In this document: positions 13,982-28,299 of the stretch, piece by piece
Numbering within the stretch: position 1 is the stretch's first letter
Layout: each line of letters starts with the position of its first letter
DNA from: Fidelibacterota bacterium
Lineage (GTDB): Bacteria > Fidelibacterota > Marinisomatia > Marinisomatales > JACNKV01
Length of the DNA stretch: 64,000 nucleotides
Assembly (NCBI GenBank): GCA_014381855.1
Contig: JACNKV010000035.1
Location: 16,080 to 80,079, forward strand
Reading direction: 5' to 3'
The notes under the pieces: generated by a model
What the model was told of the DNA's origin: nothing
The model's input: only the letters and a program-made list of their open reading frames with translations
Databases searched by the model: none
Translations under genes and position numbers: made by a program

Positions 13982-16900
13982 TTATTTCAGTAGAATAAGT
14001 TTTCGCACGGAATGTTGATTCCCGCGCGTCAATCTACTAAAATACACCCCGCTTGAAAATCCTGTCGCATCCCATATTACGGAGTGATGACCGGGCTCAA
14101 GTTTTTCATTCACCAATGTTTCTACTAACCGTCCGGTGAGGTCATACACCATTAGAGACGTTGCCCCGTTCTTATCGGGATCTCCGACACGCAACGTCTC
14201 TACGTTGTTTTGATGTATCGAAAACGAAATCGTCGTCGTTGGATTGAATGGGTTAGGATAATTTGGTTCGAGGCTAAATTCAGTTGGATGAATATTCTCC
14301 AAGTCATCAACAGCTAAATCTTCCCAGTTTTTATAGTTTGTGTACACTCGAGCAGTCGAAGCCGGAATTTCATAATTTACATAATTACCATCATCAATAT
14401 GGAGGGATTCATCTTGTGTGAATTCGAACCAATCACCTGAATAAGGAAACGCAAGGTTAGAGATAGTCTGATCAGAACTGTTGAAATTCATGACAATAAA
14501 TACGGTTTGTCCAAGGGAGTCATCATGCCGTTTCACTGCAATGACTTTTTGTGAATTACCGGTAAGTGTAGTTTCAAAATTTGGTCCGCGAATTACGTCC
14601 CAATTATTCCGGAGCCAGATTATCCGTTTGTATAGGGTGAAAATGTCATTTCCCCAGTCAGAGTTCAACTTTTCCCACTGCAGAGGTTGTGGAATGATAT
14701 GTCCGCTTGGATCACGGCTCGTTCCATTCTGCCCGAATTCCTGACCGTGGTACAGCATTGGAGTTCCTGTCCCTGTGAACAAGGCAACCGCACCAAGTTT
14801 TGATTTTAATGCAGCTTCGTTGATTGTCATTCCTTGATAGTGAGTTGCTTCATAAATTAATCGTGGTTCATCATGGCTTACGGTATAATTTAATGGACCG
14901 GTATGCGTTGAATAACTTTGGCTCCACCACTGTAAATGGTTTTGTAAATTGTACATACTCAAATAGATTTCCATAAGATTATCAAAAATTGTATGATGGT
15001 AAGAATAATCCCAGCCGGAATCAAAATCAGTAGTGTTAATTTTACTTGGATTATCTTCTTCGGCTATCAAAATGATGGTGGGGTCAATGTCATCCAGTAA
15101 GTCAGCATAATATGAAGCTCCGTTTGAGTCCCCGCCCCAACCCATTCCTGCAGTATGGTCGAAGCGAAAACCGTCCATGTGATAATCATTTACCCATGTG
15201 AGAAGTACATCTGAAATATGTTTCCAAGAACGATACGAACGTCCGTTTACCTCATGCCAATGTTCAAGTTTATATCCCCATTGAGATTCTTGATTGTGAA
15301 AATACGGACATTGGTCGTAGTTGTGATCCTCAAAATCATAGTTATCAATAGGTTGGTAAAGCTGAAACAGAGGGGCTGATCCCCACAGATGATTGAAAAC
15401 CACATCCATCAGTACTGCAATTCCGTGCTGATGAGCGGTATTGACAAGATTTTTTAATTCCTCCGGTGTACCGTAAGTAGATTCCGGAGCCATGTAAAAT
15501 GTGGGGTTGTATCCCCATGAATTACTTCCCTCAAACTCATTTACCGGCATAAGTTCAATCGCAGTAATTCCCAGCTCGGTGAAATATCCATCGTTCAATT
15601 TCTGGATGATATCTTGATAAGTCCCAATTTCACCATCCACTCCATGGAAATCCCCCACATGAAGTTCATAAACTAAGACATCCTGTTGAGCCGGTCGATT
15701 GAAGTTATTGTCAGTCCAATAATATGGAACGGCACCTACTTCAAATACTGTTTTGGCATGTTGATAATTACCACTTTCCCAGCCACCACCCGGGTCTACC
15801 CATGTTACATCTTTAGACCACGGATCTGCGATGGTTTTTTCACCGTCCAAATTATATTGATACGAATAAACTCCGTCAGGCAATTCTGTTTGATACCACC
15901 AGAGTGTATCCCCGGAAAGTTTCATTAACTCCCCGTTTGGATGTTCCATATTCCAGCTTCCTTTAATCGCAACAAAACTTTTATATGGAGCAAAAAGTGT
16001 TACCGTTACTATATTCCCGTTGATGTTTACTCCATCAGAAACTCCAGATGGGACAGGCTCTTCTACAATCTCGTGTAGGATATTTACATGTCTGAATAAA
16101 TAGGTTACGGTACCACCTGATCCGTGCGCAATTGCAAAGATAGTTGCATTCCCAAATTCTGACGATTCTGGTGTCCATGATTCCTCAAACGGAGAGGAAT
16201 TATCTGAACCTAAGTTGTCACCGTTTGCCCAAAATTCCACAGATTCAGCGTCCCCTGTTACTGCGATATTAATCGTCCCGTTTACATTTTCGCCTTCATT
16301 GGGAGTCGGTTCTATAAAAAACACATAAGGATCACCGGGCGAGTAATCATAGTCGATATAAATATCGTAATACATAACCTGCCCATTCGTCCCGACATCC
16401 CAGTTGCCGTCATCCCAGCGAATCTTAAATTTAATCGATTGTACGACTTGCTCACCGGAGAGAAATGGACCTAGGTCAATCATGAGACTGTTCAAACCAT
16501 TATCTTCTAAAGGGGAAAAAACCAACCCGTCCTCGAGATAGGAATCCGCCGGCCAATAATCCTGAATAGGAGGGACATGCCCATATCCCTCATCGACTGT
16601 CCATGCAATTTTACCGCCTTGAGTGACATTGTTTAAGACAATCGTAACGGATTCTTCAGGACCGGGATGGTAGGGTGTCCAATAGTAGTTCAGACTGATA
16701 TGCCAGTCAATTCCTATCCCGCCGTTATTATCCCAGTTACCTTGCAGATCGGTGAATACAAAATCAATGGTTTCTGCATTTTGCGGAATAGCGTAAATGT
16801 ACTTCCACCAACCAGCACCAATATCGGGAGCTAGATTCATCGTGTAATCATTGGTGTTTTCCCAACCATTGTAGCCTAAATGTATGTAAACCGGATTAGT

Positions 16901-17044
16901 GTCATCAGGCAGTGTTCCGTCAACAACATTGTAGTAGATTGTAATATCACCGCCCGGCACCGGGATTTCGGGTTCCCAAAACACCCTGTCCTGCGCCCAT
17001 ATCTGCGAGAGTAAAATTATCAGTGGAAATAATTTGCACTTCAT
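13982..17044 (-). CDS. large secreted GH13 enzyme with CBM25/53-like and CBM48-like modules and T9SS CTD
   Basis: N-terminal starch-binding-like module ending FVFTDLQGNWDNNGG. CBM48-like VTLFAPYKSFVAIKGSWN. Catalytic SWGYNPTFYMAPE, MDVVFNHL, GFRFDHTAG, IAEEDN and VSHDEPR. CTD runs YPNPFNPTTTISF..GVYFSRL..RKLILLK. Confidence 0.88.
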   Translation of the reverse strand: MKCKLFPLIILLSQIWAQDRVFWEPEIPVPGGDITIYYNVVDGTLPDDTNPVYIHLGYNGWENTNDYTMNLAPDIGAGWWKYIYAIPQNAETIDFVFTDLQGNWDNNGGIGIDWHISLNYYWTPYHPGPEESVTIVLNNVTQGGKIAWTVDEGYGHVPPIQDYWPADSYLEDGLVFSPLEDNGLNSLMIDLGPFLSGEQVVQSIKFKIRWDDGNWDVGTNGQVMYYDIYIDYDYSPGDPYVFFIEPTPNEGENVNGTINIAVTGDAESVEFWANGDNLGSDNSSPFEESWTPESSEFGNATIFAIAHGSGGTVTYLFRHVNILHEIVEEPVPSGVSDGVNINGNIVTVTLFAPYKSFVAIKGSWNMEHPNGELMKLSGDTLWWYQTELPDGVYSYQYNLDGEKTIADPWSKDVTWVDPGGGWESGNYQHAKTVFEVGAVPYYWTDNNFNRPAQQDVLVYELHVGDFHGVDGEIGTYQDIIQKLNDGYFTELGITAIELMPVNEFEGSNSWGYNPTFYMAPESTYGTPEELKNLVNTAHQHGIAVLMDVVFNHLWGSAPLFQLYQPIDNYDFEDHNYDQCPYFHNQESQWGYKLEHWHEVNGRSYRSWKHISDVLLTWVNDYHMDGFRFDHTAGMGWGGDSNGASYYADLLDDIDPTIILIAEEDNPSKINTTDFDSGWDYSYHHTIFDNLMEIYLSMYNLQNHLQWWSQSYSTHTGPLNYTVSHDEPRLIYEATHYQGMTINEAALKSKLGAVALFTGTGTPMLYHGQEFGQNGTSRDPSGHIIPQPLQWEKLNSDWGNDIFTLYKRIIWLRNNWDVIRGPNFETTLTGNSQKVIAVKRHDDSLGQTVFIVMNFNSSDQTISNLAFPYSGDWFEFTQDESLHIDDGNYVNYEIPASTARVYTNYKNWEDLAVDDLENIHPTEFSLEPNYPNPFNPTTTISFSIHQNNVETLRVGDPDKNGATSLMVYDLTGRLVETLVNEKLEPGHHSVIWDATGFSSGVYFSRLTRGNQHSVRKLILLK

Positions 17045-17047
17045 TTT

Positions 17048-18859
17048 TTATTCCTCAATATTTACGGTTGTTGAAAGGTGTTTAAACCAAGTGAAATATA
17101 GCGCTACCGACAGTATTACCAGTGTGATGCCAAGCACAGCGACATTGCCCCATGTTTTGAATATCAGACTCATCATGAAAAGGAAGAAAACCACCTGCCA
17201 CGGTACCGCCAGGAATGTTGAAAATATATCCCTGCGGTTTTCAGCATCGATGTCAGCAATATCTTTACTGGATAACTGTGCCTTAAACCTGCCCCATGAC
17301 CCAAACGGTCTTGTATTGCGATAGAAGCGTGAGAGTGTTTCATCATCAGTCGGTTCTGTCAGCAGTGTACCCATTATCGTTCCCATGAGCGAGAACCCGG
17401 TTGCAACGGTGAACATTGTGTATTCAGTAACACCTTCAGGAGCAATTGCCTTGAAAATGATTGCAGAAGCCATCCCTGCAAAAGTACCCCAGACAAACCC
17501 CCAGCCATTCATTCGACTCCAGTACCAACGAAGTAACATTGGAATTAGGAGTCCTGAGCCGATACTCATTGTAATCCAGCCCCAGATAGAATTGATATTT
17601 TTGAAGACCAGCATAAGTCCTAGCCCAGCTAAGACAATCAGAACAGAAGCCATGTAACTATGGAGCATCATTTTCTTTTCCGTAGCTTTAGGATTAATGT
17701 ACAGCTTGTAAATATCTTTCACCCAGTAAGCGGCACCGGCGTTTACAGTCGAGTCAAATGTTGACATTCCGGCTGCCATCAGTCCGGCAATTAAAAAGCC
17801 TTTAATGCCGACGGGCAATGTTTCTACCACGGCTGGCAGAACAAGCTCGGGATCTGTTATTTGTGTTCCCAAGGATATGCCAATAACGGCAATTGCCCCG
17901 ATAAACACCCATCGGAAGGAAAGCAAGAACACCCAAAATGCACTTAACAATCCGGCTTCTCGGTCATCTTTTGCGGCGAAGAAACGCTGAAGCATATAGT
18001 TTCCTGTTCCTCCTGAGCCTTCAAGTATCACCTTCATCAAGTAAAACATAATTGCTACTCCGAATAAATTATAAATGGAATACTGTGAATATTGATCTAT
18101 GGATAGGTTTGATGATGGCCAAATACTCGTCCATTCTTTGAGTGTTGTCGAGAATCGATGAAATCCTCCGCCAGCACTTTCCATCATCGGAAGTGAAATT
18201 GTAAATTCATCCGGAAGTGTAATCCCATACGCTTTTACAGCCATGTATGCAATCGCAGAAAAGATTAGAAAGCCTTGAAATACGTCCGTCCACACAACAC
18301 CGTACAAACCGGAAGCAACGGTATAAATCATGGCAACGGAAATTAACAGCGTGGCTGCCCAGAATTCAGATGGCAGTCCAAGATAATTTTCGATACCAAG
18401 AAATGTGTCCAGGAATTTTCCACCGCCAAGAGCAAAATATGTAACCATCGCAATAGTCATAATGATGGAGGATATCGCCGCCACAAGACGTGCAGCTCGT
18501 CCCTGAGTCTCTTTTCCGAAGCGTAGTTCCATCCATTCGGCTAGAGTCATCGCGCCGGAACGCCGGTTCCATTTCCCCATGTAGATCATAAGAAACGCCA
18601 TGATTAGAGTTACACCGCCGCGGATTTCGATGTAAAATCCCTTGGCACCGAGCGCATAGATCAATGCGGCAATAATCATCGTTCCGCTAATATCCAAATT
18701 AGATGACATTCCGGATGAAGCTAATGCCCACCAAGGAAGGTTGCGGTTGCCTAAAAAATAGGAATCAATTCCGCGTGAAGCTTTCCGTTGCATATATAAT
18801 CCGATAAAGACAATAGCAGTTAAATAAACTCCGATTATGGTAAAATCAATTGGGCTCAT
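17048..18859 (-). CDS. sodium:solute symporter (SSS) family transporter
   Basis: 603 aa and polytopic. N-terminus IIGVYLTAIVFIGLYMQRKASRGIDSYFLGNRNLPWWALASSGMSSNL is typical of the SSS family. It is embedded in the alpha-glucan operon. Confidence 0.85.
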   Translation of the reverse strand: MSPIDFTIIGVYLTAIVFIGLYMQRKASRGIDSYFLGNRNLPWWALASSGMSSNLDISGTMIIAALIYALGAKGFYIEIRGGVTLIMAFLMIYMGKWNRRSGAMTLAEWMELRFGKETQGRAARLVAAISSIIMTIAMVTYFALGGGKFLDTFLGIENYLGLPSEFWAATLLISVAMIYTVASGLYGVVWTDVFQGFLIFSAIAYMAVKAYGITLPDEFTISLPMMESAGGGFHRFSTTLKEWTSIWPSSNLSIDQYSQYSIYNLFGVAIMFYLMKVILEGSGGTGNYMLQRFFAAKDDREAGLLSAFWVFLLSFRWVFIGAIAVIGISLGTQITDPELVLPAVVETLPVGIKGFLIAGLMAAGMSTFDSTVNAGAAYWVKDIYKLYINPKATEKKMMLHSYMASVLIVLAGLGLMLVFKNINSIWGWITMSIGSGLLIPMLLRWYWSRMNGWGFVWGTFAGMASAIIFKAIAPEGVTEYTMFTVATGFSLMGTIMGTLLTEPTDDETLSRFYRNTRPFGSWGRFKAQLSSKDIADIDAENRRDIFSTFLAVPWQVVFFLFMMSLIFKTWGNVAVLGITLVILSVALYFTWFKHLSTTVNIEE

Positions 18860-18914: not shown

Positions 18915-21900
18915 CTACTTTTTAATTTCTTCTAATATTCCCAGAATTTCTTCCGGTTTATCGACAACGAATTTTGCACCGCTGTTCCATAATTCTTTTT
19001 CACATCGAAACCCCCATTTGACTCCTACAGCCGTCATTCCGGCATTATTTGCCGTTTTCATATCAATATTGGTGTCTCCAATGTACAAACAATCTTCCGG
19101 CTCTGCCCCGAGTCGCTTTGCGATATCCAAAACGCCTGCTGTATCCGGTTTAGGTGGGTATTTTTCATTTACGCCATTTACTTCAAAATCCCATTTTGAC
19201 AAAAATTCAGCATCACATTCTAAGGCAAATTGATGCGGTTTGTTGGTGAAAACTCCAAGTACAATATTACGTTTAGTAAGCTTGTCAAGAAGTTTAGGAA
19301 TCCCGTCATACAATTTTGATTTTGTATTTAAATTGCCTCGATATACAACTTTTAGTTCGGTTAAATATTTTTCTACAGATGCTTTGTCGCGTAATTCTTC
19401 CGGTAATGCTATTTCCATCAAATGTTCAATCCCGCTTCCAACAAAATAACGGTATTGTTCAATAGTGTGCGTAGGTAGTTTATATTTTTTCAGGACTGTA
19501 TTTACCGAATCACCTATATCTTCAAGAGTATTTAGCAGTGTTCCGTCCATATCAAAAATGACGGCTTTTTTTCTCAGCAGGGAATTCACTTGTTTATTAA
19601 TCAACGATTCGATGTTGCCGGTGCCGGAACCACGGAGCGATTTATGAATTGAAGAATAGAGACCATCTGAATCTTGCACAATTCGTATATTCATAAATAC
19701 TTGAGTTTGGTAGCCTTGAAGCTGAATAAATAATCCGTCACGACAAAATTCTGTAGCATGCCGTATGTATTCCAGACCTGAAATCGTATCTGAAAAAATG
19801 ATATAAGTATTTTCATTATTAGGGATGTTTAGTGCTTTATAAATAGATACAGTTTGATTATTATTGGTTTTTGACGGTTCTGATTTATTAATCCAACCAG
19901 CCGTATTTTTGATTGAATTATTGTATATCACTAAGGTAGATGTTTCATGCCGTCTGTTCGAGTAAACAAAAACACTTTCGTCAATGCTTTTATCCTGTTT
20001 TATTAAGGGAAATAAGGAAAAATGATCGACACCTGAAAACAGATGCCGGTGTTTTAATAGTGGAGTGATAATCCGATAATGATGGTCAATAAATCCCTGA
20101 TCAGGATTTTCTTCCCGGTACGCTTTACGAAACTCCATTCCATATTTTTCTTCAAATCCTTCAATTTGACCATGACCAAACATTGGCAATCCGGGCAAGG
20201 TACACATCATGATGGTAACACCAAAATACTTATCCGCTTTTCCAAACTGTGCCACAGCTGTATCTTCATCCGGATTATTTAAGAAGTTAACATAACGTTT
20301 CAGGATTTGCGGGTCATACTCAAGCGTTTTTTTGATTAACTCACGGTATTCTGAATTTCGCTCAATTTTCAGCATATTCATAAAAGCACTGTTATAGACT
20401 CTGTGCATACCCAATGTGCGCACAAAATAACCCTCCATCATCCAAAATGCTTCGGCAAGTAGTAATGTGTCCGGAACTTCCTCAGCGACCCGATCAACAA
20501 CTTCCCTCCAAAATTCTTTTGGAATGGCAGATTGAAAATCACGATCAGACATCGCATACTGCCATCGAGAAGGAATTCCGCCGCCTTCACCAGGTGGAGG
20601 AAACCAAAGTCGCTGAATATGCTTTTTTGCTAGTGTCATGGCGGCATCAAATCGAATAATCTGGAAGGTTTTGGCTATCTTGATAATTGTTTGAATCACA
20701 GTCTCACGTAATTCGGGATTCAGATAATTTAATTGAGCTGTGTCATTCCACGGCATGGATGTTCCGTCATTCCCATGATAGATGTATTTTACATTGCCAT
20801 CTATTTTATCAACCAGTTTAAATGTAACAGCAGCATCGCTGTGATTGAAGTAATGGTCTTCTAAATATACCTCAATTTTATCATGAGAAGAAATATTTTG
20901 ATTTGTATAACGGTAAGAAGGAAACGATGGTTGGTCAGCGGAGATATACCAGTCGGGATGTTTTGCGAGCCAGGGGGAGTCTAATCCAGTGTGGTTTGGT
21001 ACTATATCGCCGGCAAGACGAACCCCCCTTTTTAAGCAACGATCTTTTAAGTTATTCAACGCATCCCATCCACCCAATTCATCAGAAATATCATATTCAC
21101 TCAACGAATAGGCAGAAGCCTCAGCTTCGGAATTGCCCATTATGTTTTTTATGGTTTTTGAAGCTGGGCTGCGTTTCCAAATACCGATTAACCATATTGC
21201 ATTGAATCCAAAATCCACTAATTTTTCTATTTCTTTATCCGGAATATGATCGAGACGAGTAATATTACGGTTGTAAAATTTTGATAGCTGATTCATCCAA
21301 ACAAGAGCATTTTTCGCTATCATAACCACATTAGGCATCCAATCTAAATCATGGCTAAAACCTTCAATGTCATTCAAATTACTAAAGTCGGGTAGCTCCT
21401 GAACACCTGAACCTGTTCCACGGAATTTCATTTCTTCAGCGGATTGATCTAAACCCTGCTTTATTTGAGAGGAAAAATCACCTAAGAATTGAGACCAATT
21501 TTTCAAAATGAACCGCAATTGTTTCTCCAAACTATTTGGATACAAGGAAATTGGCTCATATAAAAAAGCCGGTAAAGTTAAGTCTGTATTTCCAACCGGC
21601 TTCTCACCTTTATAAGTCTTGTTCAACAAATCAATCATCGTTTGAAAATCTTGGTCGTTGCTCCATTCTGTATAGTCAAAAAAGGGATATAATGCTTTTG
21701 AAGCAGGATTAACATTTTCGAGCCAGAGTAAGAGAATGTCTTGTTTGGAAATATGACCTTCAATATTAAATTTAATTTTAATAGGGGATGAGATATTCTG
21801 AAAAATATCTGAAAAGTTATCGATATCTTTATGATAATCGTTGAAAATTCGTTCGACTGCCGTAACAATCAATGAAAACAGCCAAATATCAGATGGAATA

Positions 21901-22043
21901 ATTCCTTCAATTTTATCTTTAACTATCTCGGAGAAGCGGTAATAATCAACGTGAGAGGGGAAAGAAATTTTTCCATGTTCATCGTATTGAAACTTTTCCA
22001 ATCCATACGTTTTACGTTTTTGAGTTATAATATGAAATCCCAT
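18915..22043 (-). CDS. fusion protein: large GH13-like alpha-amylase-family domain plus C-terminal HAD-IA phosphatase domain
   Basis: GH13 regions GDIVPNHTG, IIRFDAAMTLAKKH, LLAEAFW and FLNNPDED. The HAD domain occupies the last ~220 aa (about 18918-19570) with motif I FDMDGTLL, motif II VFTNK, a Lys in PPKPD and motif IV GDTNIDMKTA. No signal peptide, so predicted cytoplasmic. Confidence 0.8.
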   Translation of the reverse strand: MGFHIITQKRKTYGLEKFQYDEHGKISFPSHVDYYRFSEIVKDKIEGIIPSDIWLFSLIVTAVERIFNDYHKDIDNFSDIFQNISSPIKIKFNIEGHISKQDILLLWLENVNPASKALYPFFDYTEWSNDQDFQTMIDLLNKTYKGEKPVGNTDLTLPAFLYEPISLYPNSLEKQLRFILKNWSQFLGDFSSQIKQGLDQSAEEMKFRGTGSGVQELPDFSNLNDIEGFSHDLDWMPNVVMIAKNALVWMNQLSKFYNRNITRLDHIPDKEIEKLVDFGFNAIWLIGIWKRSPASKTIKNIMGNSEAEASAYSLSEYDISDELGGWDALNNLKDRCLKRGVRLAGDIVPNHTGLDSPWLAKHPDWYISADQPSFPSYRYTNQNISSHDKIEVYLEDHYFNHSDAAVTFKLVDKIDGNVKYIYHGNDGTSMPWNDTAQLNYLNPELRETVIQTIIKIAKTFQIIRFDAAMTLAKKHIQRLWFPPPGEGGGIPSRWQYAMSDRDFQSAIPKEFWREVVDRVAEEVPDTLLLAEAFWMMEGYFVRTLGMHRVYNSAFMNMLKIERNSEYRELIKKTLEYDPQILKRYVNFLNNPDEDTAVAQFGKADKYFGVTIMMCTLPGLPMFGHGQIEGFEEKYGMEFRKAYREENPDQGFIDHHYRIITPLLKHRHLFSGVDHFSLFPLIKQDKSIDESVFVYSNRRHETSTLVIYNNSIKNTAGWINKSEPSKTNNNQTVSIYKALNIPNNENTYIIFSDTISGLEYIRHATEFCRDGLFIQLQGYQTQVFMNIRIVQDSDGLYSSIHKSLRGSGTGNIESLINKQVNSLLRKKAVIFDMDGTLLNTLEDIGDSVNTVLKKYKLPTHTIEQYRYFVGSGIEHLMEIALPEELRDKASVEKYLTELKVVYRGNLNTKSKLYDGIPKLLDKLTKRNIVLGVFTNKPHQFALECDAEFLSKWDFEVNGVNEKYPPKPDTAGVLDIAKRLGAEPEDCLYIGDTNIDMKTANNAGMTAVGVKWGFRCEKELWNSGAKFVVDKPEEILGILEEIKK

Positions 22044-22067: not shown

Positions 22068-23744
22068 TCATTTTTTACTATAGTACCGTTCGTTATAATC
22101 TTGAATCATCCTATGCGCTGTGTACTGTACACTTGTTTTGATGGACTCCCGCATGAGGTTTAGCCAAATATCGTGATCGGAATAATAAGCAGGGATGACC
22201 TCCTTCTCAAGCGTGTTGTACAATGATGCGGCATCACGTTCATCATCAGCCTTGTCAGGATTACCAATCGCCCATCCGTTCTCACCATGTCGACAGGCTT
22301 CTGCCCACCAACCATCAAGGATAGACAGGTTCGGAATCCCGTTAAGTGCTGCTTTCATTCCGCTGGTTCCGGACGCTTCATTGGGACGAAGAGGAGTGTT
22401 TACCCAGACATCCACTCCGGAAGTGATAAGTTTCCCGAGCCACATATTGTAATTTTCCAGAAAGACCACTTTAACTTTCCCAAAAAGACGGTTGGCATCT
22501 TCTACAATGTTTTGAATTATCTGCTTTCCTCCTCTGTCATTTGGATGAGCTTTTCCAGCAAACACAATTTGGAGTTTTCCTTCACTAATTTCGATTAATC
22601 GTTCTAAATCATGAAAAATTAATCGAGCTCGTTTGTATTCTGCTGCACGTCTGGCGAATCCGAGGGTGAGCACGTCTTCCGATAAGGCTTTTCCGGTTTG
22701 AGAGTTCGCATATCCTAATAAAAAGTGTTTATGAGATTGATGCATATACAAAAGTTCTTTGTCAGGAATCTCATCTATGTTTAGCAGCTGTTGGGGGTTT
22801 TCTTTCCAGTCGGGAAAATATTTTGTGTATAGTTCTCTGAATTCTTTTCCGACCCAGTATGGATGATATACTCCATTTGTGATTGCACCGATATTAAATT
22901 CAGGAAATTGCTCCTGAGCAACGCCACCGTGAAGCTTAGACACTCCGTTTGCTGACCGACTGAAATACAGTCCTAATTCTGTCATGTGCCAACGACTGTT
23001 TTGTACTAAAGACGGGAGATTTAAATTGTCAGGCAGTAAGTTGTGCAGCAACTTGTCACACCGTTTTTTCGCAAAATGATCGTGACCAGCTTCAACGGGT
23101 GTATGGGTAGTAAAATGACAGTGCTGACGTACGATTTCTTCGTTATTGTTAAATTTATCCAATAAACCTAATGTCAAAAAAGAACAATGTCCCTCATTCA
23201 TGTGATAGGTTTCAATACTTCCGTTTATACCTAACTTTTCAAGTAATTGAATTCCGCCAAAGCCAAGGATTGCTTCCTGAAGTATTCTGTGATCTTTGTC
23301 CCCTGAATAAAGCCGAAGTGTGATGACTCGGTCATCATGGAAATTGTCAGCGACGTCGGTATCAAGAAAATAGATGGGAATTTCATGTCCGGTAATTCCT
23401 TTAAACCTATACTCAAAAGCTTGAATCCACACATCTCTATTTCGTAGTTTGAGCGTGAACATAACCGGAAGTTTTTTCAGCATTGGATATGGGTCGAACC
23501 TTGGAAACGTTTCTGACTGATTTCCTTCTTCATCAATCCGTTGTTTAAAGTATCCTTCTTTATACAATAAGGTAACGGCACACATATTCAATCCGGCATC
23601 TGCAGATGATTTTATGTGATCACCTGCTAATACACCTAATCCGCCGCTATAAGTCGGTAACTGTGATGAAATGCCGATTTCTGCACTAAAATAGGCAATG
23701 GTGAAATCTGTATTTTTTGCGAGACGTGAATCACTGTTTGTCAT
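22068..23744 (-). CDS. glgP: alpha-glucan phosphorylase (GT35, short maltodextrin-phosphorylase type)
   Basis: SGGLGVLAGDHIKSSADAGL N-terminal signature and EASGTSGMKAALNG pyridoxal-phosphate Lys region. Overlaps the malQ stop by 4 nt. Confidence 0.9.
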   Translation of the reverse strand: MTNSDSRLAKNTDFTIAYFSAEIGISSQLPTYSGGLGVLAGDHIKSSADAGLNMCAVTLLYKEGYFKQRIDEEGNQSETFPRFDPYPMLKKLPVMFTLKLRNRDVWIQAFEYRFKGITGHEIPIYFLDTDVADNFHDDRVITLRLYSGDKDHRILQEAILGFGGIQLLEKLGINGSIETYHMNEGHCSFLTLGLLDKFNNNEEIVRQHCHFTTHTPVEAGHDHFAKKRCDKLLHNLLPDNLNLPSLVQNSRWHMTELGLYFSRSANGVSKLHGGVAQEQFPEFNIGAITNGVYHPYWVGKEFRELYTKYFPDWKENPQQLLNIDEIPDKELLYMHQSHKHFLLGYANSQTGKALSEDVLTLGFARRAAEYKRARLIFHDLERLIEISEGKLQIVFAGKAHPNDRGGKQIIQNIVEDANRLFGKVKVVFLENYNMWLGKLITSGVDVWVNTPLRPNEASGTSGMKAALNGIPNLSILDGWWAEACRHGENGWAIGNPDKADDERDAASLYNTLEKEVIPAYYSDHDIWLNLMRESIKTSVQYTAHRMIQDYNERYYSKK

Positions 23745-25255
23745 TTTGTCCTGTTATATTTATTGGTTAGGTGTTTTAAACGGGTAATCATTTTGTCTGA
23801 GAGCATATCCCATGTGAATCTCCATGTCCAATTTCCATTGGCTGTCCCCGGGATGTTCATTCGTGCCTTTGAATCAAGACCCATTACATCTTGTAAAGGA
23901 ATAATGGTCGTGTTGGCAGGTGTCTGTAACGCAAGATCAATCATATCCCAATGAATTTCAGAACCGTCTGTCTCAAAATACTCCAATACGTTTTTTCTTT
24001 CAGCAGAAATTTCATCTTCTGTTTGGGCTCGTCCCTGTCCTGAGTGCATTGTAAACCAGCCCTTGGTGGTGTCATTATCGTGAGTTCCAGTGTAAACGAC
24101 GCAGGATTTAGGATAATCCATTGGGTCTTCATTTTCTCCAAAGGCAAACTGTAGAATCTTTAATCCTGGGAATTCAAATATTTTACGAACAGGCTCGGCC
24201 TCTTTTGATGCTTCACCCAAATCTTCAGCAATGATGGGCAACGGACCTAATTCTTGAGTGATAACGTTGAAAAAGTCTTCACCAGGACCTTGTATCCAGC
24301 GACCATTTTTTGCATTTTTTGAATTCGCTGGGACTTCCCAATATTTTACAAATCCATTAAAATGATCAATGCGGACTATATCGACCATTGTAAACAATTT
24401 TTTTATCTGAGATACCCACCATTTGTATCTGGTCTTTTTGTGAACATCCCAGTTGTAGATTGGATTTCCCCAAAGCTGCCCGGTTTCACTAAAATAACAC
24501 GGTGGGGCTCCAGATAGTCTGTCCATTTTTCCATCACAATCAAGATGGAACAATGATTGATTTGCCCAGACATCCACACTGTCATAGGCAACGTAAATCG
24601 GAATATCCCCAATGATTCGCACATTACGTTTGTGGGCATAATCGATTAAACTATGCCATTGATCATGAAAAAGGAACTGAAGAATTTTTACTTTTAGTAT
24701 GTCAGATTTATATTTTTCTGCGATTTCAGATAATGCATCAGGATTTCTATGTTTATACTCCCATTTCCAGTCAGCCCAAGCTTGGTTATTATGTAATTCT
24801 TTTAAAGTGATAAACAGGGCAAAATCATCTAACCACACACTATTTGTCGAACAAAATTCACGGAAATTTTCGATGAACTCTTTAGAAGCTCGGGACTGAA
24901 AATTTTCCGCCACGATATTTAATATAGATGAGCGTAAAGAAAATACGGAATTGGAGTCTATATGGATTTCGGAGAGAGTATTTAAGGTTTGTACTTCACT
25001 TGTTTTTAGATATCCATTTTTAATGAGCAACTCAAAGCTGATAAGTAAAGGATTACCTGCAAATGATGAAAGTGATTGATATGGTGAGGCACTAAGGCCT
25101 GTAGGACCAATGGGAAGAATTTGCCATAAATGCTGCCCCATTGTTTTTAATCGGTCAATGAATGTATAGGCATGCGGACCAATTTCTCCGATTCCGTATT
25201 GCCCGGGAAGAGATGTAATATGCAGTAAAATACCGCTTGAACGATGGAATACCAT
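23741..25255 (-). CDS. malQ: 4-alpha-glucanotransferase (amylomaltase, GH77)
   Basis: SSGILLHITSLPGQYGIGEIG start, VRIDHFNGF, IAEDLG and GTHDNDT motifs. Length is 504 aa. Confidence 0.92.
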   Translation of the reverse strand: MVFHRSSGILLHITSLPGQYGIGEIGPHAYTFIDRLKTMGQHLWQILPIGPTGLSASPYQSLSSFAGNPLLISFELLIKNGYLKTSEVQTLNTLSEIHIDSNSVFSLRSSILNIVAENFQSRASKEFIENFREFCSTNSVWLDDFALFITLKELHNNQAWADWKWEYKHRNPDALSEIAEKYKSDILKVKILQFLFHDQWHSLIDYAHKRNVRIIGDIPIYVAYDSVDVWANQSLFHLDCDGKMDRLSGAPPCYFSETGQLWGNPIYNWDVHKKTRYKWWVSQIKKLFTMVDIVRIDHFNGFVKYWEVPANSKNAKNGRWIQGPGEDFFNVITQELGPLPIIAEDLGEASKEAEPVRKIFEFPGLKILQFAFGENEDPMDYPKSCVVYTGTHDNDTTKGWFTMHSGQGRAQTEDEISAERKNVLEYFETDGSEIHWDMIDLALQTPANTTIIPLQDVMGLDSKARMNIPGTANGNWTWRFTWDMLSDKMITRLKHLTNKYNRTK

Positions 25256-25286: not shown

Positions 25287-25487
25287 TTATTCTGTTTTAT
25301 TTAATAGTGAAATAAAATCTAATTCGAGAGTTTGGATTTTACCATCTACATCCTCACGATATAACGTCAATTTAGTGTCAGGATTTTCTGCAACTGTCCA
25401 TTCGATTTCATTTAAAATGACAGAATCGCCAACCGCAATGGATTTGATTTCTGGTTTTGTTCCTGTGTCCAAGTTTATTATCTTCAT
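25287..25487 (-). CDS. small acidic hypothetical protein (66 aa from the ATG; the ORF track gives 72 aa from a TTG)
   Basis: The ATG at 25487 is preceded by an AGGAG RBS. The gene lies between the TrmB-like regulator and malQ on the same strand. I recognise no family. Confidence 0.5.
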   Translation of the reverse strand: MKIINLDTGTKPEIKSIAVGDSVILNEIEWTVAENPDTKLTLYREDVDGKIQTLELDFISLLNKTE

Positions 25488-25501: not shown

Positions 25502-26311
25502 TCAAATGTCTGCCAATAAACTGTCTAAACGAATATCCGGTCTCCGCATAATTTTTTTCACAATCGGATTCGGGTCAAAATCTAACCTTTGTCCGGCTAG
25601 GGTGATGTCAAGGATGATATGATTTGTAGCAATTTCAGTGATTGCTTTATTTTTTGTAAATATCGTTCTGCTGTCATTATGTTCAACCGTGCTACCCATT
25701 ATCGTCGTGGTTTGGTCGGCAACTAAAATAATTTTTGGATTCCATACTTTTAAAAGATCGACTTCATCTAAACTATAACTGACGGTTGTCCCAATATCTT
25801 CTTTAAGTTTGCAGAAAGAAAATAGCGTAATATCAACATCTCTATTCACAGCATCTTTTAATTCTCTTCCCAACGTAGTAACTTCTTGTCGCCATGCGCT
25901 TAGGATAATTTTACCTTGAGCATGATTAATAATTTCTTTCGCTTTCATGATTAGGTTACGATACCCGTGTAGGTGCCAAAAATCGAAGGCTTCTTCACTG
26001 GTGTTTAAATGGTCAAAAGCCTCGGTAATTTGTTGTACACGGTCTATATGTAAATTATTCATGTGTTCAATCATTGAAGAAGGCGATAGAGCGATATATT
26101 TTTTTGGATTTTCTCCCACAGAATTTATCAAACCTAAGGCCGTTAAGCGATTCAGTACGGAGTAAATAGCCGATCGTGGAACCCCGGAATATGTGCTGAT
26201 TTCATATCCGGTTGCCGGATTATTTTTCAGTAAAGCCAAATATGCCTTACCGGCATTGGAGGGAAGTCCAAATTCCGCAAGTAAATCAATAATTGTTTTT
26301 TCAGTATTCAT
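25502..26311 (-). CDS. TrmB-family sugar-responsive transcriptional regulator
   Basis: N-terminal winged HTH LLAEFGLPSNAGKAYLALLKNNPATGYEISTYSGVPRSAIYSVLNRLTALGLI, followed by a C-terminal TrmB-type sensing domain of appropriate length. It heads the minus-strand malQ-glgP operon. Confidence 0.82.
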   Translation of the reverse strand: MNTEKTIIDLLAEFGLPSNAGKAYLALLKNNPATGYEISTYSGVPRSAIYSVLNRLTALGLINSVGENPKKYIALSPSSMIEHMNNLHIDRVQQITEAFDHLNTSEEAFDFWHLHGYRNLIMKAKEIINHAQGKIILSAWRQEVTTLGRELKDAVNRDVDITLFSFCKLKEDIGTTVSYSLDEVDLLKVWNPKIILVADQTTTIMGSTVEHNDSRTIFTKNKAITEIATNHIILDITLAGQRLDFDPNPIVKKIMRRPDIRLDSLLADI

Positions 26312-26433: not shown

Positions 26434-28299
26434 ATGAAACAAATTAAATTAATAATTAAAGTCCTGCTATTAATCGTAGTTATTGAATCAAACCTCTTCG
26501 GTAACGTACTTCCCGATTGGGCGACGGATGCTGTGTGGTATCAGATATTTCCTGAGAGGTTTAATAATGGAGATCACGCAAACGATCCAACGTTAGCAAG
26601 TACCGTAGGAACATGGCCTTGGCAACATTCTGAGACGTGGAACGTATCACCGTGGACATCTGATTGGTACACCTTTCAGCAATGGGAGGTAGAAAATGGG
26701 AAAGATTTTCGGTACCAATTCCAGCTCCGGCGATACGGAGGTGATTTACAGGGGATCATTGAAAAATTGGATTATCTCCAAGAGTTAGGTGTCAATGCGA
26801 TTTATTTAAATCCGGTATTTGATTCGCCTTCATCTCATAAATACGGAGCGGCAACCTATCATCATATTGATCGACATTTTGGCCCGGACCCTGAAGGTGA
26901 TACCAACATTATTCAATCAGAAAGTCCAAATGACCCATCAACCTGGAAATGGACTTCAGCTGATAAATTATTTCTGCAGCTCGTCGAAGAGGTGCATCGC
27001 CGGGAAATGCATATCATTATAGATGGTGTATTTAATCATGCAGGATTAACATTTTGGGCATTTCAAGATGTCATAGAGAATCGGGAAAAAAGTTCGTACT
27101 ATCATTGGTACTCCATTGATGGAAATGGAATGGAAGACCATTCACATTTGAATGATTATAGAGACTTGCCATCTCAATTTAATCCGGATGGATATCCTCC
27201 TTTACGATATAAAGGGTACGTAGAAGATCTTCCTGCTTTTCGTCAGAACGAAGACGGTCCGGTTAAACCTGTTCGTGAGCACTTTAAGGAAATTGTTCGT
27301 CGTTGGATGGATCCGAACAATGATGGAGATACTTCTGATGGTATTGATGGATGGCGTTTAGATGTCGCCGAACGAATACAAATGTCGTTTTGGGATGAAT
27401 TTTGCGGCTGGGTGAAAGTGATAAACCCGAATGCATACATTACCGGGGAAGTCTGGTGGGAAGACTGGTGGAATAACAAACAATTTAATGCGTCTCCTTG
27501 GCTGAAAGACGGTCGTTTTGATGCCGTGATGAATTATCGATTTGGTGATGCAATGTTCAAGTATTTTATTGACCGGAAAAACCAGATTACTCCATTTGAA
27601 CTGGATATATTGCTTCAACAGGTCAGGGATGAATATCCCCCAAATACGGCTTACGTCTTGCAAAATTGTCTTGGAAGCCATGACATGGAAAGACTTGCCT
27701 CAGCGGTTGTAAATCCAGACAGATTGATAGACCATGCAAACAATACATGGTGGAATAAGGAATTTGACATCCGAAAGCCAAACTCCAAGCAGCAACAGAT
27801 TCAAAAGACAATCATTCTGTTTCAGTTTTCGTATTTGGGAGCACCCTATATCTATTATGGAGATGAAGTAGGAATGTGGGGAGCAGATGACCCGGATTGT
27901 CGCAAACCCATGGTGTGGTCTGAATTTTCTTATGAAAATGAAACCGCACATCCTTGCGACTATTTGGCATGTATTGAAACTAGGCCTGAAGATCGTGTGA
28001 TGGTTGACAAAGATTTATGGAAATATTATCATGATTTGATTGACCTTCGCCATAAACATCCATCCTTGAGACGAGGGAATTACAAGACAGTTTATACAAA
28101 TAGTGAAGGTCTCTTCGTCTTTCAGAGACAGCAGGATAATGAAATAATTATATGCGCATTTAATGGCTCAAACATTCAACAAACAATCCCAAATATTGTT
28201 TTTGAGGGCAAATTTGAAAATTGGTCCATGATATTTGGGGATGATTTTAATAAACAACTTCAAGCAAAATCAGGAAAACTATTTAAAAAGAAATTATGA
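26434..28299 (+). CDS. secreted GH13 enzyme (neopullulanase/cyclomaltodextrinase-like)
   Basis: Signal peptide present. AVWYQIFPERFNNGD, GGDLQGIIEKLDYLQELGVNAIYLNPVF, IIDGVFNHAG, GWRLDVAERI, TGEVWWED and LGSHDMER motifs. Confidence 0.9.
   Translation: MKQIKLIIKVLLLIVVIESNLFGNVLPDWATDAVWYQIFPERFNNGDHANDPTLASTVGTWPWQHSETWNVSPWTSDWYTFQQWEVENGKDFRYQFQLRRYGGDLQGIIEKLDYLQELGVNAIYLNPVFDSPSSHKYGAATYHHIDRHFGPDPEGDTNIIQSESPNDPSTWKWTSADKLFLQLVEEVHRREMHIIIDGVFNHAGLTFWAFQDVIENREKSSYYHWYSIDGNGMEDHSHLNDYRDLPSQFNPDGYPPLRYKGYVEDLPAFRQNEDGPVKPVREHFKEIVRRWMDPNNDGDTSDGIDGWRLDVAERIQMSFWDEFCGWVKVINPNAYITGEVWWEDWWNNKQFNASPWLKDGRFDAVMNYRFGDAMFKYFIDRKNQITPFELDILLQQVRDEYPPNTAYVLQNCLGSHDMERLASAVVNPDRLIDHANNTWWNKEFDIRKPNSKQQQIQKTIILFQFSYLGAPYIYYGDEVGMWGADDPDCRKPMVWSEFSYENETAHPCDYLACIETRPEDRVMVDKDLWKYYHDLIDLRHKHPSLRRGNYKTVYTNSEGLFVFQRQQDNEIIICAFNGSNIQQTIPNIVFEGKFENWSMIFGDDFNKQLQAKSGKLFKKKL

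What the first reader, a model, noticed from the sequence alone, without database searches (positions are those of the whole stretch)
18915..22043. Cytoplasmic GH13-like enzyme fused to a HAD phosphatase, inside the malQ-glgP operon
A single 1,042-aa ORF joins an ~800-aa alpha-amylase-family domain to a complete HAD-IA domain. The GH13 part has regions DIVPNHTG, RFDAAMTLAKKH and AEAFW, with region IV reading NNPDED rather than the usual NHD. The HAD part has FDMDGTLL, VFTNK, PPKPD and GDTNIDMKTA. The protein has no signal peptide and follows the GT35 phosphorylase and GH77 amylomaltase genes on the same strand. Phosphorolysis yields glucose-1-phosphate, so a phosphatase or phosphomutase-like domain tethered to a glucanase-like domain could couple chain processing with sugar-phosphate turnover, or could act on phosphorylated glucans. 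The substrates of both domains are unknown to me.
Basis: partly seen in the sequence, partly recalled or inferred. Interest (0 to 1): 0.6.

Follow-up and report, generated by a model that had tools for sequence, protein, structure and literature searches.

The report
Deletion-made amylase-like/phosphatase fusion protein
The GH13-like/HAD phosphatase fusion is real but found in only one Marinimicrobia lineage, where a ~2.7-kb in-frame deletion removed a glycogen-synthase domain and the glgC gene and welded two formerly separate enzymes together, so it looks like a deletion scar rather than a designed bifunctional enzyme.

Summary
The 1,042-aa ORF exists at 18915-22043, on the minus strand. All eight quoted motifs are present. 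It lies in the operon TrmB, small ORF, MalQ (GH77), short phosphorylase, this gene, SSF symporter, secreted GH13. It is not an artefact: at least 21 contigs from many samples, in six sequence variants, carry the same 1,042-aa frame and junction.

Syntenic operons in the closest relatives read MalQ, phosphorylase, [GH13-like::GT5 glycogen synthase, ~1,310 aa], GlgC, standalone HAD, SSF. The window lacks exactly the GT5 domain and glgC (~2.7 kb). Homology to the GH13-like part ends at aa 815 and homology to the HAD gene resumes at its codon 10. The junction is the only segment of the model with pLDDT below 50.

No other GH13-like/HAD fusion ranks in the best 150 hits of an exhaustive search of 1.84 billion representative proteins. 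Both modules keep their catalytic residues and family-conserved positions.

Best reading: two independently acting enzymes tethered by accident, with the fusion keeping the HAD translated. The GH13-like module belongs to a large, uncharacterised, divergent GH13-clan family (region IV His replaced by Pro). That family and its GlgA fusion are the more interesting lead. Substrates remain unknown.

The parts
18915..22043 (-). GH13-like::HAD fusion gene (1,042 aa plus stop). The protein is identical to NCBI MBC8215044.1, annotated 'HAD-IA family hydrolase', Candidatus Marinimicrobia.
   Evidence: ORF; identity to P0241; source name
21339..22043 (-). N-terminal helical domain of the GH13-like module (aa 1-235). 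No Pfam family. Conserved within the GH13-like family.
   Evidence: AF2 secondary structure; family alignment; Pfam
20094..21338 (-). GH13-type (beta/alpha)8 catalytic barrel (aa ~236-650). Region I D346/N350/H351; nucleophile D466 (nt 20646-20648); H475; acid/base E531 (20451-20453); N590-P591-D592 (D592 at 20268-20270).
   Evidence: Pfam PF00128; residues invariant in 44 family members; Foldseek matches to GH13 structures; coordinates
19629..20093 (-). C-terminal beta-sandwich domain of the GH13-like module (aa 651-805).
   Evidence: AF2 model; aligns to P0002 through aa 815
19569..19628 (-). Linker and deletion junction (aa 806-825). Homology to GH13-like::GT5 proteins ends at aa 815 and homology to the standalone HAD gene resumes at aa 826. 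Residues 816-825 (nt 19569-19598) are the junction proper.
   Evidence: BLASTP; DNA alignment; only model segments with pLDDT below 50 are 806-810 and 812-823
19566..19572 (-). A7 homopolymer at the junction. It is the only obvious place where a length error could change the frame. It is identical in all 8 independent assemblies checked.
18918..19568 (-). HAD-IA (Gph/COG0546-type) phosphatase module (aa 826-1042). Motif I D831/D833, motif II T933, motif III K965, motif IV D990/D994.
   Evidence: Pfam and NCBIfam; 60% identity to standalone P0121; 48 of 49 conserved columns kept; TM 0.84 to PDB 2hi0
22068..23744 (-). Short (558 aa) alpha-glucan phosphorylase (GT35, TIGR02094), immediately upstream with a 24-nt gap.
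23741..25255 (-). MalQ 4-alpha-glucanotransferase (GH77).
25287..25487 (-). Small conserved ORF (66 aa from the ATG) between TrmB and MalQ. Also called in sister loci at 62-66 aa. No Pfam family.
25502..26311 (-). TrmB-family sugar-responsive transcriptional regulator, first gene of the operon.
17048..18859 (-). Sodium:solute symporter (SSF), immediately downstream with a 55-nt gap. It is the most conserved operon gene (90-95% identity to sisters).
13982..17044 (-). Secreted GH13 with CBM53 and a T9SS sorting tail, last gene of the operon.

Best explanation
The protein is a chimera created by one in-frame deletion of about 2.7 kb.

Origin. The ancestral operon, still intact in the closest Marinimicrobia relatives, encoded a ~1,310-aa GH13-like::GT5 (GlgA) protein, then GlgC, then a standalone ~235-aa HAD-IA phosphatase. 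The deletion ran from the inter-domain linker about 8 residues before the GT5 domain to the first codons of the HAD gene. It removed the glycogen-synthase domain and all of glgC, and joined the GH13-like module to the HAD through a ~20-residue flexible linker.

Shown here: the event, its polarity, its uniqueness, and the intactness of both modules.

Inferred function:
1. The two modules act independently, as they did when separate.
2. The GH13-like module is a retaining alpha-glucan-active enzyme (nucleophile D466, acid/base E531, transition-state stabiliser D592). It works on cytoplasmic maltodextrins beside MalQ and the phosphorylase.
3. The HAD module is a Mg2+-dependent phosphomonoesterase for a small substrate. 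It is most plausibly a sugar-phosphate (G1P/G6P-type) relief valve.
4. The in-frame join was retained because the deletion also removed the sequence directly upstream of the HAD start codon. Translation from the GH13-like start keeps the HAD expressed.
5. The lineage converted a mixed glycogen-synthesis and starch-catabolism operon into a purely catabolic one.
For: Synteny:
- Sister loci L087, L088-L090 and L099/L100 carry TrmB, small ORF, MalQ, phosphorylase, GH13-like::GT5, GlgC, HAD, SSF, GH13-CBM53.
- More distant loci L101/L102 and L091/L092 carry GH13-like::GT5, GlgC, SSF without HAD.
- The window and its allele L095 carry GH13-like::HAD, SSF.

Polarity: the Phos+SSF tree nests the window inside the HAD-bearing clade as sister to L099 (bootstrap 1.0), so the GT5 and GlgC absence is a loss.

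Junction:
- Window aa 1-815 align to P0002 aa 1-827 (61%), and the Pfam GT5 match on P0002 starts at aa 836.
- Window aa 826-1040 align to HAD P0121 aa 10-224 (60%).
- DNA homology resumes at HAD codon 10.
- The missing segment is about 2,710 bp in L087 coordinates.
- No GT5 or GlgC remnant is found anywhere in the window (tblastn, all E > 0.1), and no glgA/glgC/glgB appears among the window's ORFs.

Uniqueness:
- In the phmmer search of 1.84 billion representatives, only P0001 spans 1-1042. The best matched stretch of every other listed hit ends by query residue ~911.
- In the 5.8-billion-protein search, no other listed hit covers more than 85% of the query.

Reality of the ORF: six variants, all 1,042 aa; 13 contigs read for P0001 and 8 for P0242; identical junction.

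Intactness:
- The GH13 catalytic residues are invariant in the family.
- The window deviates at 19 of 261 family-conserved columns, against 22 and 23 for its intact sisters.
- The HAD keeps 48 of 49 conserved columns and has allele-level dN/dS of 0.135.

Linker: the only model segments with pLDDT below 50 are 806-810 and 812-823.

HAD expression: in L087 the HAD ATG follows the glgC stop by 6 nt, so its initiation region lay inside the deleted DNA.
Against: - Independence of the two modules is inferred, not shown. No activity data exist for any member of the GH13-like family or for this HAD subgroup.
- The GH13-like module has 136 window-unique against 46 L099-unique substitutions (p = 2.5e-11). 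Its gene tree places the window outside L087+L099. So something more than a simple deletion happened to it: adaptation to the new context, relaxed surface constraint, or import of a divergent allele.
- Between the two alleles the GH13-like module shows 2 synonymous and 7 nonsynonymous changes.
- An ancestral physical link to GlgA suggests a biosynthetic role, for example chain remodelling. That fits awkwardly with the module being kept after GlgA was lost.
- Whole-genome absence of glgA/glgC in this lineage was not verified.
Confidence: 0.8

Rival explanations
1. The fusion is a purposeful bifunctional enzyme in which the tethered HAD phosphatase or mutase handles a sugar phosphate made or used next to the GH13-like site (G1P, maltose-1-phosphate, phosphoglucan), giving substrate channelling.
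For: - Both modules are catalytically intact.
- The gene sits next to a G1P-producing phosphorylase.
- HAD has been kept in this operon in three lineages.
- The in-frame junction has been maintained across two alleles.
- The fast evolution of the GH13-like module in the window lineage could reflect adaptation to a new partner.
Against: - The fusion is unique to one 90%-identity cluster among billions of proteins.
- The same two modules are separate genes, with a gene between them, in all close relatives.
- The join is a ~20-residue low-confidence linker exactly at a deletion scar.
- The HAD is a generic Gph/COG0546 type. It falls below every NCBIfam equivalog cut-off, including beta-PGM.
- Its next-closest relatives lie in unrelated contexts.
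- Known glucan phosphatases use a DSP fold with a CBM, not a HAD fold (established knowledge).
Confidence: 0.1
2. The GH13-like module is a decaying passenger. After GlgA and GlgC were lost it has no job, and it survives only as the translated leader that supplies a start codon for the HAD. The protein is in effect just a phosphatase.
For: - Allele-level dN/dS is about 0.9 for the GH13-like part (2 synonymous, 7 nonsynonymous), against 0.135 for HAD and 0.10-0.19 for TrmB, MalQ, the phosphorylase and SSF.
- There is a three-fold excess of window-unique substitutions in the GH13-like part, including the barrel at 49 vs 10.
- NCBI's pipeline names the protein only 'HAD-IA family hydrolase'.
Against: - No stop codons or frameshifts occur in 2.4 kb across six variants.
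- All ~155 family-invariant residues are kept, including the catalytic triad.
- Deviations at family-conserved columns are no more frequent than in intact sisters: 19 vs 22 and 23 of 261, and 45 vs 51 and 54 of 346.
- The allele differences lie in variable columns, and several move toward the family consensus.
- The allele dN/dS rests on only 9 changes.
Confidence: 0.07
3. This concerns origin and does not exclude the best explanation. The chimeric central segment did not arise in situ in the L099-like ancestor. It was imported by homologous recombination from a more divergent relative in which the deletion had already happened, making the operon a mosaic.
For: - The tree from the flanking phosphorylase and SSF genes puts the window next to L099 with bootstrap 1.0. 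The GH13-like tree puts it outside L087+L099, also with bootstrap 1.0.
- Window-L099 divergence at four-fold sites is 0.69±0.035 for the GH13-like part and 0.655±0.064 for HAD, against about 0.53 pooled for the flanks. That equals the level seen against L087.
- NG86 pS is 0.79 and 0.74 against 0.53-0.69.
- Window-L099 and window-L087 nonsynonymous distances for the GH13-like part are equal (0.243 vs 0.246).
Against: - Four-fold sites are near saturation in all comparisons (0.59-0.74), and windows within the phosphorylase already reach 0.67-0.77, so the contrast is weak.
- No donor lineage with the fusion or a closer GH13-like allele was found.
- Accelerated evolution at variable sites explains the same tree artefactually through long-branch effects.
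Confidence: 0.3
4. The single ORF is a sequencing or assembly artefact, either a frameshift error in the A7 run or a chimeric contig. In reality there are two genes.
For: A homopolymer (A7, nt 19566-19572) lies exactly at the junction.
Against: - The same frame and the same A7 are present in 8 assemblies from different runs and projects, including a diverged allele with a substitution two codons away.
- At least 21 contigs encode full-length 1,042-aa variants.
- Synteny on both sides is continuous.
- Even if the frame were broken, the GT5 domain and glgC would still be missing.
Confidence: 0.02

Closest known systems
GH13-like::GT5 (GlgA) fusion proteins of Marinimicrobia/FCB bacteria (e.g. 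P0002, P0003, P0005; ~1,310-1,377 aa; uncharacterised)
   Same: - The GH13-like module is orthologous (61-63% identity over aa 1-815).
- The operon position is the same, between the phosphorylase and the SSF symporter.
- The catalytic signature is the same, including N-P-D in region IV.
   Different: The C-terminal GT5 glycogen-synthase domain and the following glgC gene are absent, and a HAD phosphatase occupies the C-terminus instead. The window's GH13-like module sits on a roughly three-fold longer branch.
Glycoside hydrolase family 13 (alpha-amylase family, clan GH-H), e.g. T. neapolitana AmyB (4gkl), G. thermoleovorans GTA (4e2o), TreS, GlgE
   Same: It has a (beta/alpha)8 barrel with an Asp/Glu/Asp triad, a region I DxxxNH motif, a C-terminal beta-sandwich, and a Pfam PF00128 hit above threshold. 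Foldseek probability is 1.0.
   Different: - Identity to any solved structure is only 12-17%, and sequence matches are confined mostly to region I.
- The region IV His is replaced by an invariant Pro.
- The region II His lies 9 rather than 4 residues after the nucleophile.
- There is an extra ~235-aa N-terminal helical domain.
- No NCBIfam equivalog comes near its cut-off.
- The substrate and the reaction type (hydrolase or transferase) are unknown.
Gph/COG0546-type HAD-IA phosphatases (e.g. PDB 2hi0, 2hsz, 2nyv; TM_1254 sugar-phosphate phosphatase 3kbb; PpaX)
   Same: It has all four HAD motifs and a Rossmann-like core plus cap. It reaches TM 0.84 and 28% identity to 2hi0, and it exceeds the HAD_2 and TIGR01509/TIGR01549 cut-offs.
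   Different: It is not an equivalog of phosphoglycolate phosphatase, PpaX, MupP or beta-PGM, falling below every cut-off. The substrate is unknown. Here it is C-terminally fused to a large glycosidase-like module, whereas all 120 closest relatives listed are standalone proteins of 205-282 aa.
Conserved bifunctional alpha-glucan/disaccharide fusions (TreS-Mak/Pep2, GlgB-MalQ of Neisseria; PMC11046441), and TPS-TPP type GT-HAD fusions (from general knowledge)
   Same: Two carbohydrate-metabolism enzymes from neighbouring genes are joined in one polypeptide.
   Different: Those fusions recur across many taxa and join consecutive pathway steps. This one is confined to a single species-level cluster and joins modules that were not even adjacent genes before the deletion.

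Membership tests
GH13 / clan GH-H alpha-amylase family | Significant match to the family's catalytic-domain profile | tested here: met
   PF00128 at 42.4 bits against a gathering score of 22, aa 273-632. The match is weak but above threshold, and the same holds for all family members tested.
GH13 / clan GH-H alpha-amylase family | (beta/alpha)8 barrel fold with a C-terminal beta-sandwich | tested here: met
   AF2 model with mean pLDDT 86.6. Foldseek probability 1.0 to many GH13 structures, with target-normalised TM 0.67-0.76 for 4e2o and 4gkl.
GH13 / clan GH-H alpha-amylase family | Catalytic Asp nucleophile, Glu acid/base and Asp transition-state stabiliser in regions II, III and IV | tested here: met
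   D466, E531 and D592 are invariant in 44 diverse family members. The region IV alignment to 4gkl places N-P-D on N-H-D.
GH13 / clan GH-H alpha-amylase family | Canonical histidines of regions II (nucleophile +4) and IV (preceding the Asp) | tested here: not met
   Region IV reads N590-P591-D592, with Pro invariant in the family. In region II, H475 lies 9 residues after D466 (RFDAAMTLAKKH). The region I His351 is present.
GH13 / clan GH-H alpha-amylase family | Assignment to a defined CAZy GH13 subfamily or a characterised specificity | not testable with these tools
   No CAZy subfamily models are available. The best NCBIfam GH13 hit (MalA_Halo) scores 35 bits against a cut-off of 875. No solved relative exceeds 17% identity.
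HAD superfamily, subfamily IA phosphatases | Motifs I (DxDGT), II (S/T), III (K) and IV (GDxxxD) | tested here: met
   D831-M-D833-G-T, T933, K965 and G989-D990-x3-D994 are present. 48 of 49 columns conserved at 90% or more in 25 standalone homologues are retained.
HAD superfamily, subfamily IA phosphatases | Profile scores above curated cut-offs, and the HAD fold | tested here: met
   HAD_2 scores 111 bits (cut-off 23.8). TIGR01509 scores 45.9 (29.4) and TIGR01549 scores 33.7 (23.3). TM 0.84 to 2hi0.
Phosphoglycolate phosphatase (Gph) equivalogs | Score above the NCBIfam equivalog cut-off | tested here: not met
   NF009695 scores 129.3 against 225. TIGR01449 scores 104.9 against 180. All other equivalogs are lower.
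Beta-phosphoglucomutase (phosphomutase reading) | Score above the TIGR01990 cut-off | tested here: not met
   38.5 bits against 189.4.
Conserved 'Rosetta-stone' bifunctional enzymes | The same two-module architecture recurs in independent lineages | tested here: not met
   Only P0001 (the window's own 50%-identity cluster) spans both modules among 1.84 billion representatives. No other listed hit covers more than 85% of the query in the 5.8-billion-protein search.
Conserved 'Rosetta-stone' bifunctional enzymes | The modules catalyse consecutive or coupled reactions | not testable with these tools
   The substrates of both modules are unknown, so enzymology is needed.
GH13-like::GT5 (GlgA) fusion family | GT5 glycogen-synthase domain (PF08323 plus PF00534) C-terminal to the GH13-like module | tested here: not met
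   No GT5 match in the protein or anywhere in the window. The GH13-like module itself is orthologous and syntenic.
Glucan phosphatases (laforin/SEX4/LSF2 type) | Dual-specificity phosphatase fold plus a carbohydrate-binding module | tested here: not met
   The phosphatase module is a HAD, and Pfam finds no DSP domain or CBM in the protein.

The most novel reading that the evidence does not exclude
The GH13-like module represents a very large, uncharacterised GH13-clan family. 2,068 representative proteins match the full-length query at E <= 1e-30, though this count may include some HAD-only matches. The family occurs in Spirochaetota, Anaerolineae, KSB1, Marinimicrobia and others, and has region IV N-P-D and a private N-terminal helical domain.

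In Marinimicrobia it is the covalent partner of GlgA, in operons that contain GlgC and GlgA but no recognisable branching enzyme. It could therefore be a non-canonical glucan-remodelling enzyme (branching or priming).

The window would then be a natural experiment. After GlgA was lost, the module evolved about three times faster while keeping its core, and it acquired a tethered phosphatase. That would be consistent with neofunctionalisation into a new, possibly phosphate-coupled, catabolic activity.
Probability: 0.1. Interest if true: 0.7.

Novelty: new variant of a known kind. Interest (0 to 1): 0.3.

Why it matters
For annotation: this protein is in NCBI as 'HAD-IA family hydrolase', which hides an 800-aa glycosidase-like module. 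The architecture should not be propagated as a functional 'GH13-phosphatase' family.

For evolution: it is a clean, datable example of a new multidomain protein made by a single deletion across an operon. All the intermediate operon states are still present in relatives. It also marks the loss of the ADP-glucose glycogen-synthesis module from a starch-utilisation operon in a marine Marinimicrobia lineage.

For enzymology: the real unknown is the parent GH13-like family. It is widespread, highly conserved and cytoplasmic, it is fused to GlgA in one clade, and it has no characterised or solved member. The window's GT5-less version offers a ready-made construct for studying that module on its own.

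Tried and rejected
- Plus-strand translation of the stated coordinates gave only stops, because the gene is on the minus strand.
- Sequence searches of the PDB, with the single sequence and with a 44-member profile, gave matches mostly confined to GH13 region I. No subfamily could be named.
- A local hhalign run failed to produce output. It was meant to test whether the unannotated ~250-380-aa C-terminal extension of the ~1,100-aa family members is a degenerate GT5 or HAD. By eye the extension looks all-helical. This was not pursued.
- Sigma-70 promoter and terminator scans were at chance level (51 vs 40±6.6, and 11 vs 10.3±3.2) and in any case do not suit FCB-group promoters.
- Relative-rate tests with distant outgroups (L091/L092) showed no acceleration. 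This was a false negative caused by saturation. With the close outgroup L087 the GH13-like acceleration is strong.
- Allele-level dN/dS rests on too few changes (16 in the fusion gene) to be conclusive.
- NG86 pS and four-fold-site divergence were used to separate acceleration from recombination, but the sites are near saturation.
- Contexts of the next-closest standalone HADs were unrelated genes and gave no substrate clue.
- I searched for a relocated glgC in the window lineage. Three of the four GlgC proteins at 73% identity or more map to intact operons of other lineages, and P0393's context was not checked. A divergent paralogue elsewhere in the genome cannot be excluded.
- Six literature searches found no paper on a GH13-HAD fusion, on the GH13-like::GT5 architecture or on this family. 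PMC11046441 lists other alpha-glucan fusions (TreS-Mak, GlgB-MalQ) but not this one.

Full report
OBSERVATION. The coordinates hold a real ORF, but on the minus strand: 18915-22043, ATG to stop, 1,042 aa. The plus strand is full of stops. Pfam finds a weak but supra-threshold Alpha-amylase match (PF00128, 42.4 bits, aa 273-632) and a strong HAD_2 match (111 bits, aa 828-1008). NCBIfam places the C-terminus in HAD subfamily IA, but below every equivalog cut-off: phosphoglycolate phosphatase 129 vs 225, PpaX 81 vs 218, beta-PGM 38.5 vs 189. The N-terminus has no signal-like hydrophobic stretch.

The gene lies in a tightly packed minus-strand operon: TrmB regulator, a 66-aa ORF, MalQ (GH77), a short TIGR02094 phosphorylase, this gene, an SSF symporter, and a secreted GH13 with CBM53 and a T9SS tail. 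This operon sits inside a larger starch-utilisation locus with a TonB-dependent receptor, several more GH13s and T9SS-tailed starch binders. The protein is identical to NCBI MBC8215044.1, 'HAD-IA family hydrolase', from a Candidatus Marinimicrobia MAG.

NOT AN ARTEFACT. The 90%-identity cluster holds six sequence variants, all exactly 1,042 aa. Variant P0001 was read on 13 contigs and P0242 on 8, from different projects and samples. An A7 run lies right at the domain junction (nt 19566-19572). It is identical in all eight assemblies I compared, including an allele that differs at 16-18 nt and carries a substitution two codons away.

WHAT IT IS. The N-terminal ~815 aa belong to a very large family: 7,998 proteins passed E <= 0.001 among the 8,000 candidates scored, and 2,068 representatives matched at E <= 1e-30. 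Members are typically 1,100-1,350 aa and come from Spirochaetota, Anaerolineae, KSB1, Calditrichota, Kiritimatiellia and Marinimicrobia.

The closest relatives (61-63% identity) are ~1,310-aa proteins in which the same module is followed by a complete GT5 glycogen synthase (PF08323 plus PF00534). Their loci are syntenic with the window gene for gene, except that they read GH13-like::GT5, then GlgC, then a standalone 232-244-aa HAD, then SSF (L087, L088-L090, L099/L100). The standalone HADs are the best matches to the window's HAD module (60-64% identity).

The window protein aligns to P0002 over aa 1-815 (P0002 aa 1-827, with its GT5 Pfam match starting at aa 836). It aligns to the HAD P0121 over aa 826-1040 (P0121 aa 10-224). 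At the DNA level, homology resumes exactly at HAD codon 10. The ten residues between (816-825, nt 19569-19598) loosely resemble the HAD's own first nine codons, which I take as inference only. The segment missing from the window corresponds to about 2,710 bp of L087. No trace of GT5 or GlgC remains anywhere in the 64 kb (Pfam on all large ORFs).

POLARITY AND HISTORY. More distant relatives have MalQ (or a GH57 glucanotransferase), phosphorylase, GH13-like::GT5, GlgC and SSF, with no HAD (L101/L102, L091/L092). A tree from the two flanking genes shared by all loci (phosphorylase plus SSF) gives (L091, L092), L101, (L087, (L099, window)) with bootstrap 1.0 for the key nodes.

The order of events is therefore as follows. 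First, there was an ancestral GH13-like::GlgA, GlgC operon. Second, a HAD gene was inserted between glgC and the symporter. Third, in the window lineage only, a deletion ran from the GH13-like/GT5 linker to the HAD start. Both alleles of the window lineage share the junction, so the deletion predates their split.

UNIQUENESS. In the exhaustive phmmer search of 1.84 billion cluster representatives, only the window's own cluster spans residues 1-1042. The best matched stretch of every other hit among the top 150 ends by query residue ~911, and most end at 805-830. A second GH13-like::HAD fusion would have outscored all GH13-only relatives. The word-indexed search of 5.8 billion proteins agrees: no other listed hit covers more than 85% of the query. 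All 120 best HAD relatives are standalone proteins of 205-282 aa, although that search oddly did not return the fusion protein itself.

ARE THE MODULES ALIVE? For the GH13-like module, the residues D346/N350/H351, R464/D466/H475, E531 and N590-P591-D592 are invariant across 44 diverse members. At columns conserved in at least 90% of 41 other members, the window deviates at 19 of 261, against 22 and 23 for its two intact sisters. At the 80% level the figures are 45 of 346 against 51 and 54.

For the HAD module, all four motifs are present and 48 of 49 conserved columns are retained, the one change being T909S. Allele-level dN/dS is 0.135, like most of the neighbouring genes.

The AF2 model is confident (mean pLDDT 86.6). 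The only segments with pLDDT below 50 are 806-810 and 812-823, which together form the junction. The HAD part superposes on Gph-type phosphatases (TM 0.84 to 2hi0). The GH13-like part matches many GH13 structures only generically, at 12-17% identity.

AN UNEXPECTED WRINKLE. With the close outgroup L087, the flanking genes show equal window and L099 branches. The GH13-like module, by contrast, has 136 window-unique against 46 L099-unique substitutions (p = 2.5e-11). This holds in every sub-domain (barrel 49 vs 10). The HAD shows 27 vs 17, which is not significant. The GH13-like gene tree even places the window outside L087+L099.

Either the module evolved about three times faster after losing its GT5 partner, or the central segment has a deeper history through recombination with a divergent allele. 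Synonymous measures are higher in the centre, with four-fold sites at 0.69 against about 0.53 in the flanks. However, all are close to saturation, so I cannot decide between the two. Because the extra changes avoid family-conserved positions, degeneration is unlikely.

HOW IT MOST LIKELY WORKS. Shown: the chimera's origin, its uniqueness, its intact catalytic machinery and its flexible joint.

Inferred: the modules act independently. The GH13-like part is a retaining alpha-glucan-active enzyme in the cytoplasm beside MalQ and the phosphorylase, a trio reminiscent of E. coli MalQ/MalP/MalZ (established knowledge, analogy only). The HAD is a small-substrate Mg2+-dependent phosphatase, plausibly a sugar-phosphate valve. 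E. coli YihX is a HAD G1P phosphatase, which I cite from my own knowledge as a precedent and did not test.

In L087 the HAD start codon lies 6 nt after the glgC stop, so the deletion removed the HAD's initiation region. An in-frame join to the upstream ORF is the simplest way the HAD could stay expressed. An internal GTG at codon 819 is a possible alternative start, which is speculative.

The loss of the GlgA domain and GlgC implies the operon switched from mixed synthesis and catabolism to catabolism only. No glgC attributable to this lineage was found: three of the four GlgC proteins at 73% identity or more belong to other lineages' intact operons, and the fourth was not checked. Whole-genome absence is unverified.

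COMPARISON WITH THE KNOWN. The barrel passes the GH13 tests of profile, fold and triad. It fails the canonical histidine pattern, with region IV His replaced by Pro and the region II His displaced. It cannot be assigned to a subfamily here. The C-terminus is a bona fide HAD-IA phosphatase but not an equivalog of any named enzyme.

The fusion is not a member of the conserved bifunctional class (TreS-Mak, GlgB-MalQ; PMC11046441), because it does not recur. It is unrelated to DSP-type glucan phosphatases. No paper on this architecture or on the parent family was found.

VERDICT. This is a new but lineage-restricted domain architecture produced by a deletion, which makes it a new variant of a known kind of event. 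Interest is modest (0.3). The more promising lead is the uncharacterised GH13-like family and its covalent partnership with GlgA.

Noticed in passing
Loci L087 10001-13933, L099 5073-9008, L101 4875-9008, L091/L092 8001-12047: A GH13-like::GT5 (GlgA) fusion protein of 1,310-1,377 aa, followed by GlgC, is conserved across several Marinimicrobia/FCB lineages. It sits in operons with a phosphorylase and a 4-alpha-glucanotransferase, but no recognisable branching enzyme is in the locus. The GH13-like family is large, strongly conserved across phyla (44% mean column identity) and apparently uncharacterised.
   Followed up: partly
window 31675-35907 (+): A 1,410-aa ORF lies directly downstream of the TonB-dependent receptor (28296-31688) and has no Pfam match at E <= 1e-4. 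A counterpart of 1,316-1,399 aa occupies the same position in sister loci. It may be a novel surface glycan-binding partner in a SusC/D-like pair.
   Followed up: no
window 7207-9534 (-): A CotH kinase-like protein with a lamin-tail domain and a T9SS sorting tail is encoded directly downstream of a 788-aa GH13 in the starch locus. This is an odd companion for amylases.
   Followed up: no
window 25287-25487 (-): A small 66-aa ORF lies between the TrmB regulator and malQ. It is called at 62-66 aa in the same position in sister loci L001, L087, L095 and L099. It has no Pfam family.
   Followed up: no
window 25502-26311 (-): A TrmB-family sugar regulator, best known from Thermococcales and haloarchaea, heads this bacterial starch/maltodextrin operon and is conserved in most of the related loci.
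   Followed up: no
window 38342-38440 and 39794-39892 (+), inside ORF 37112-40357: Two stretches 1,452 nt apart gave identical weak tblastn hits. This implies an internal duplication in the 1,081-aa T9SS-tailed starch-binding protein (X25/CBM48/CBM20 modules).
   Followed up: no
L102 1634-3172: In one relative the GH77 malQ is split into two ORFs (181 and 310 aa), whereas it is intact (512 aa) in the near-identical locus L101. This may be a pseudogene or an assembly frameshift.
   Followed up: no
Protein variant P0243 (Logan, one contig): One variant of the fusion protein carries E447K at a residue that is invariant in all 44 aligned family members. It is either a sequencing error or a damaging polymorphism.
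   Followed up: no
~1,100-1,200-aa family members, e.g. P0101, P0110, P0113 (C-terminal ~250-380 aa): Most members of the GH13-like family carry neither GT5 nor HAD. Instead they have an unannotated C-terminal extension that looks all-helical (conserved W/L-rich motifs, no Pfam match). Their genomic contexts are uninformative (L093, L094).
   Followed up: partly
window 52161-63806 (-): A standard division and cell-wall (dcw) cluster fills the right end of the window: ftsZ, ftsA, ftsQ, murB, murC, murG, ftsW, murD, mraY, murF. It is ordinary and useful only as a taxonomic and housekeeping anchor.
   Followed up: no
HAD genes of window, L099 and L087: The HAD is unusually fast-evolving in all three lineages, with 36-41% pairwise amino-acid divergence and near-equal branch lengths. 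The adjacent symporter differs by only 5-10%.
   Followed up: partly
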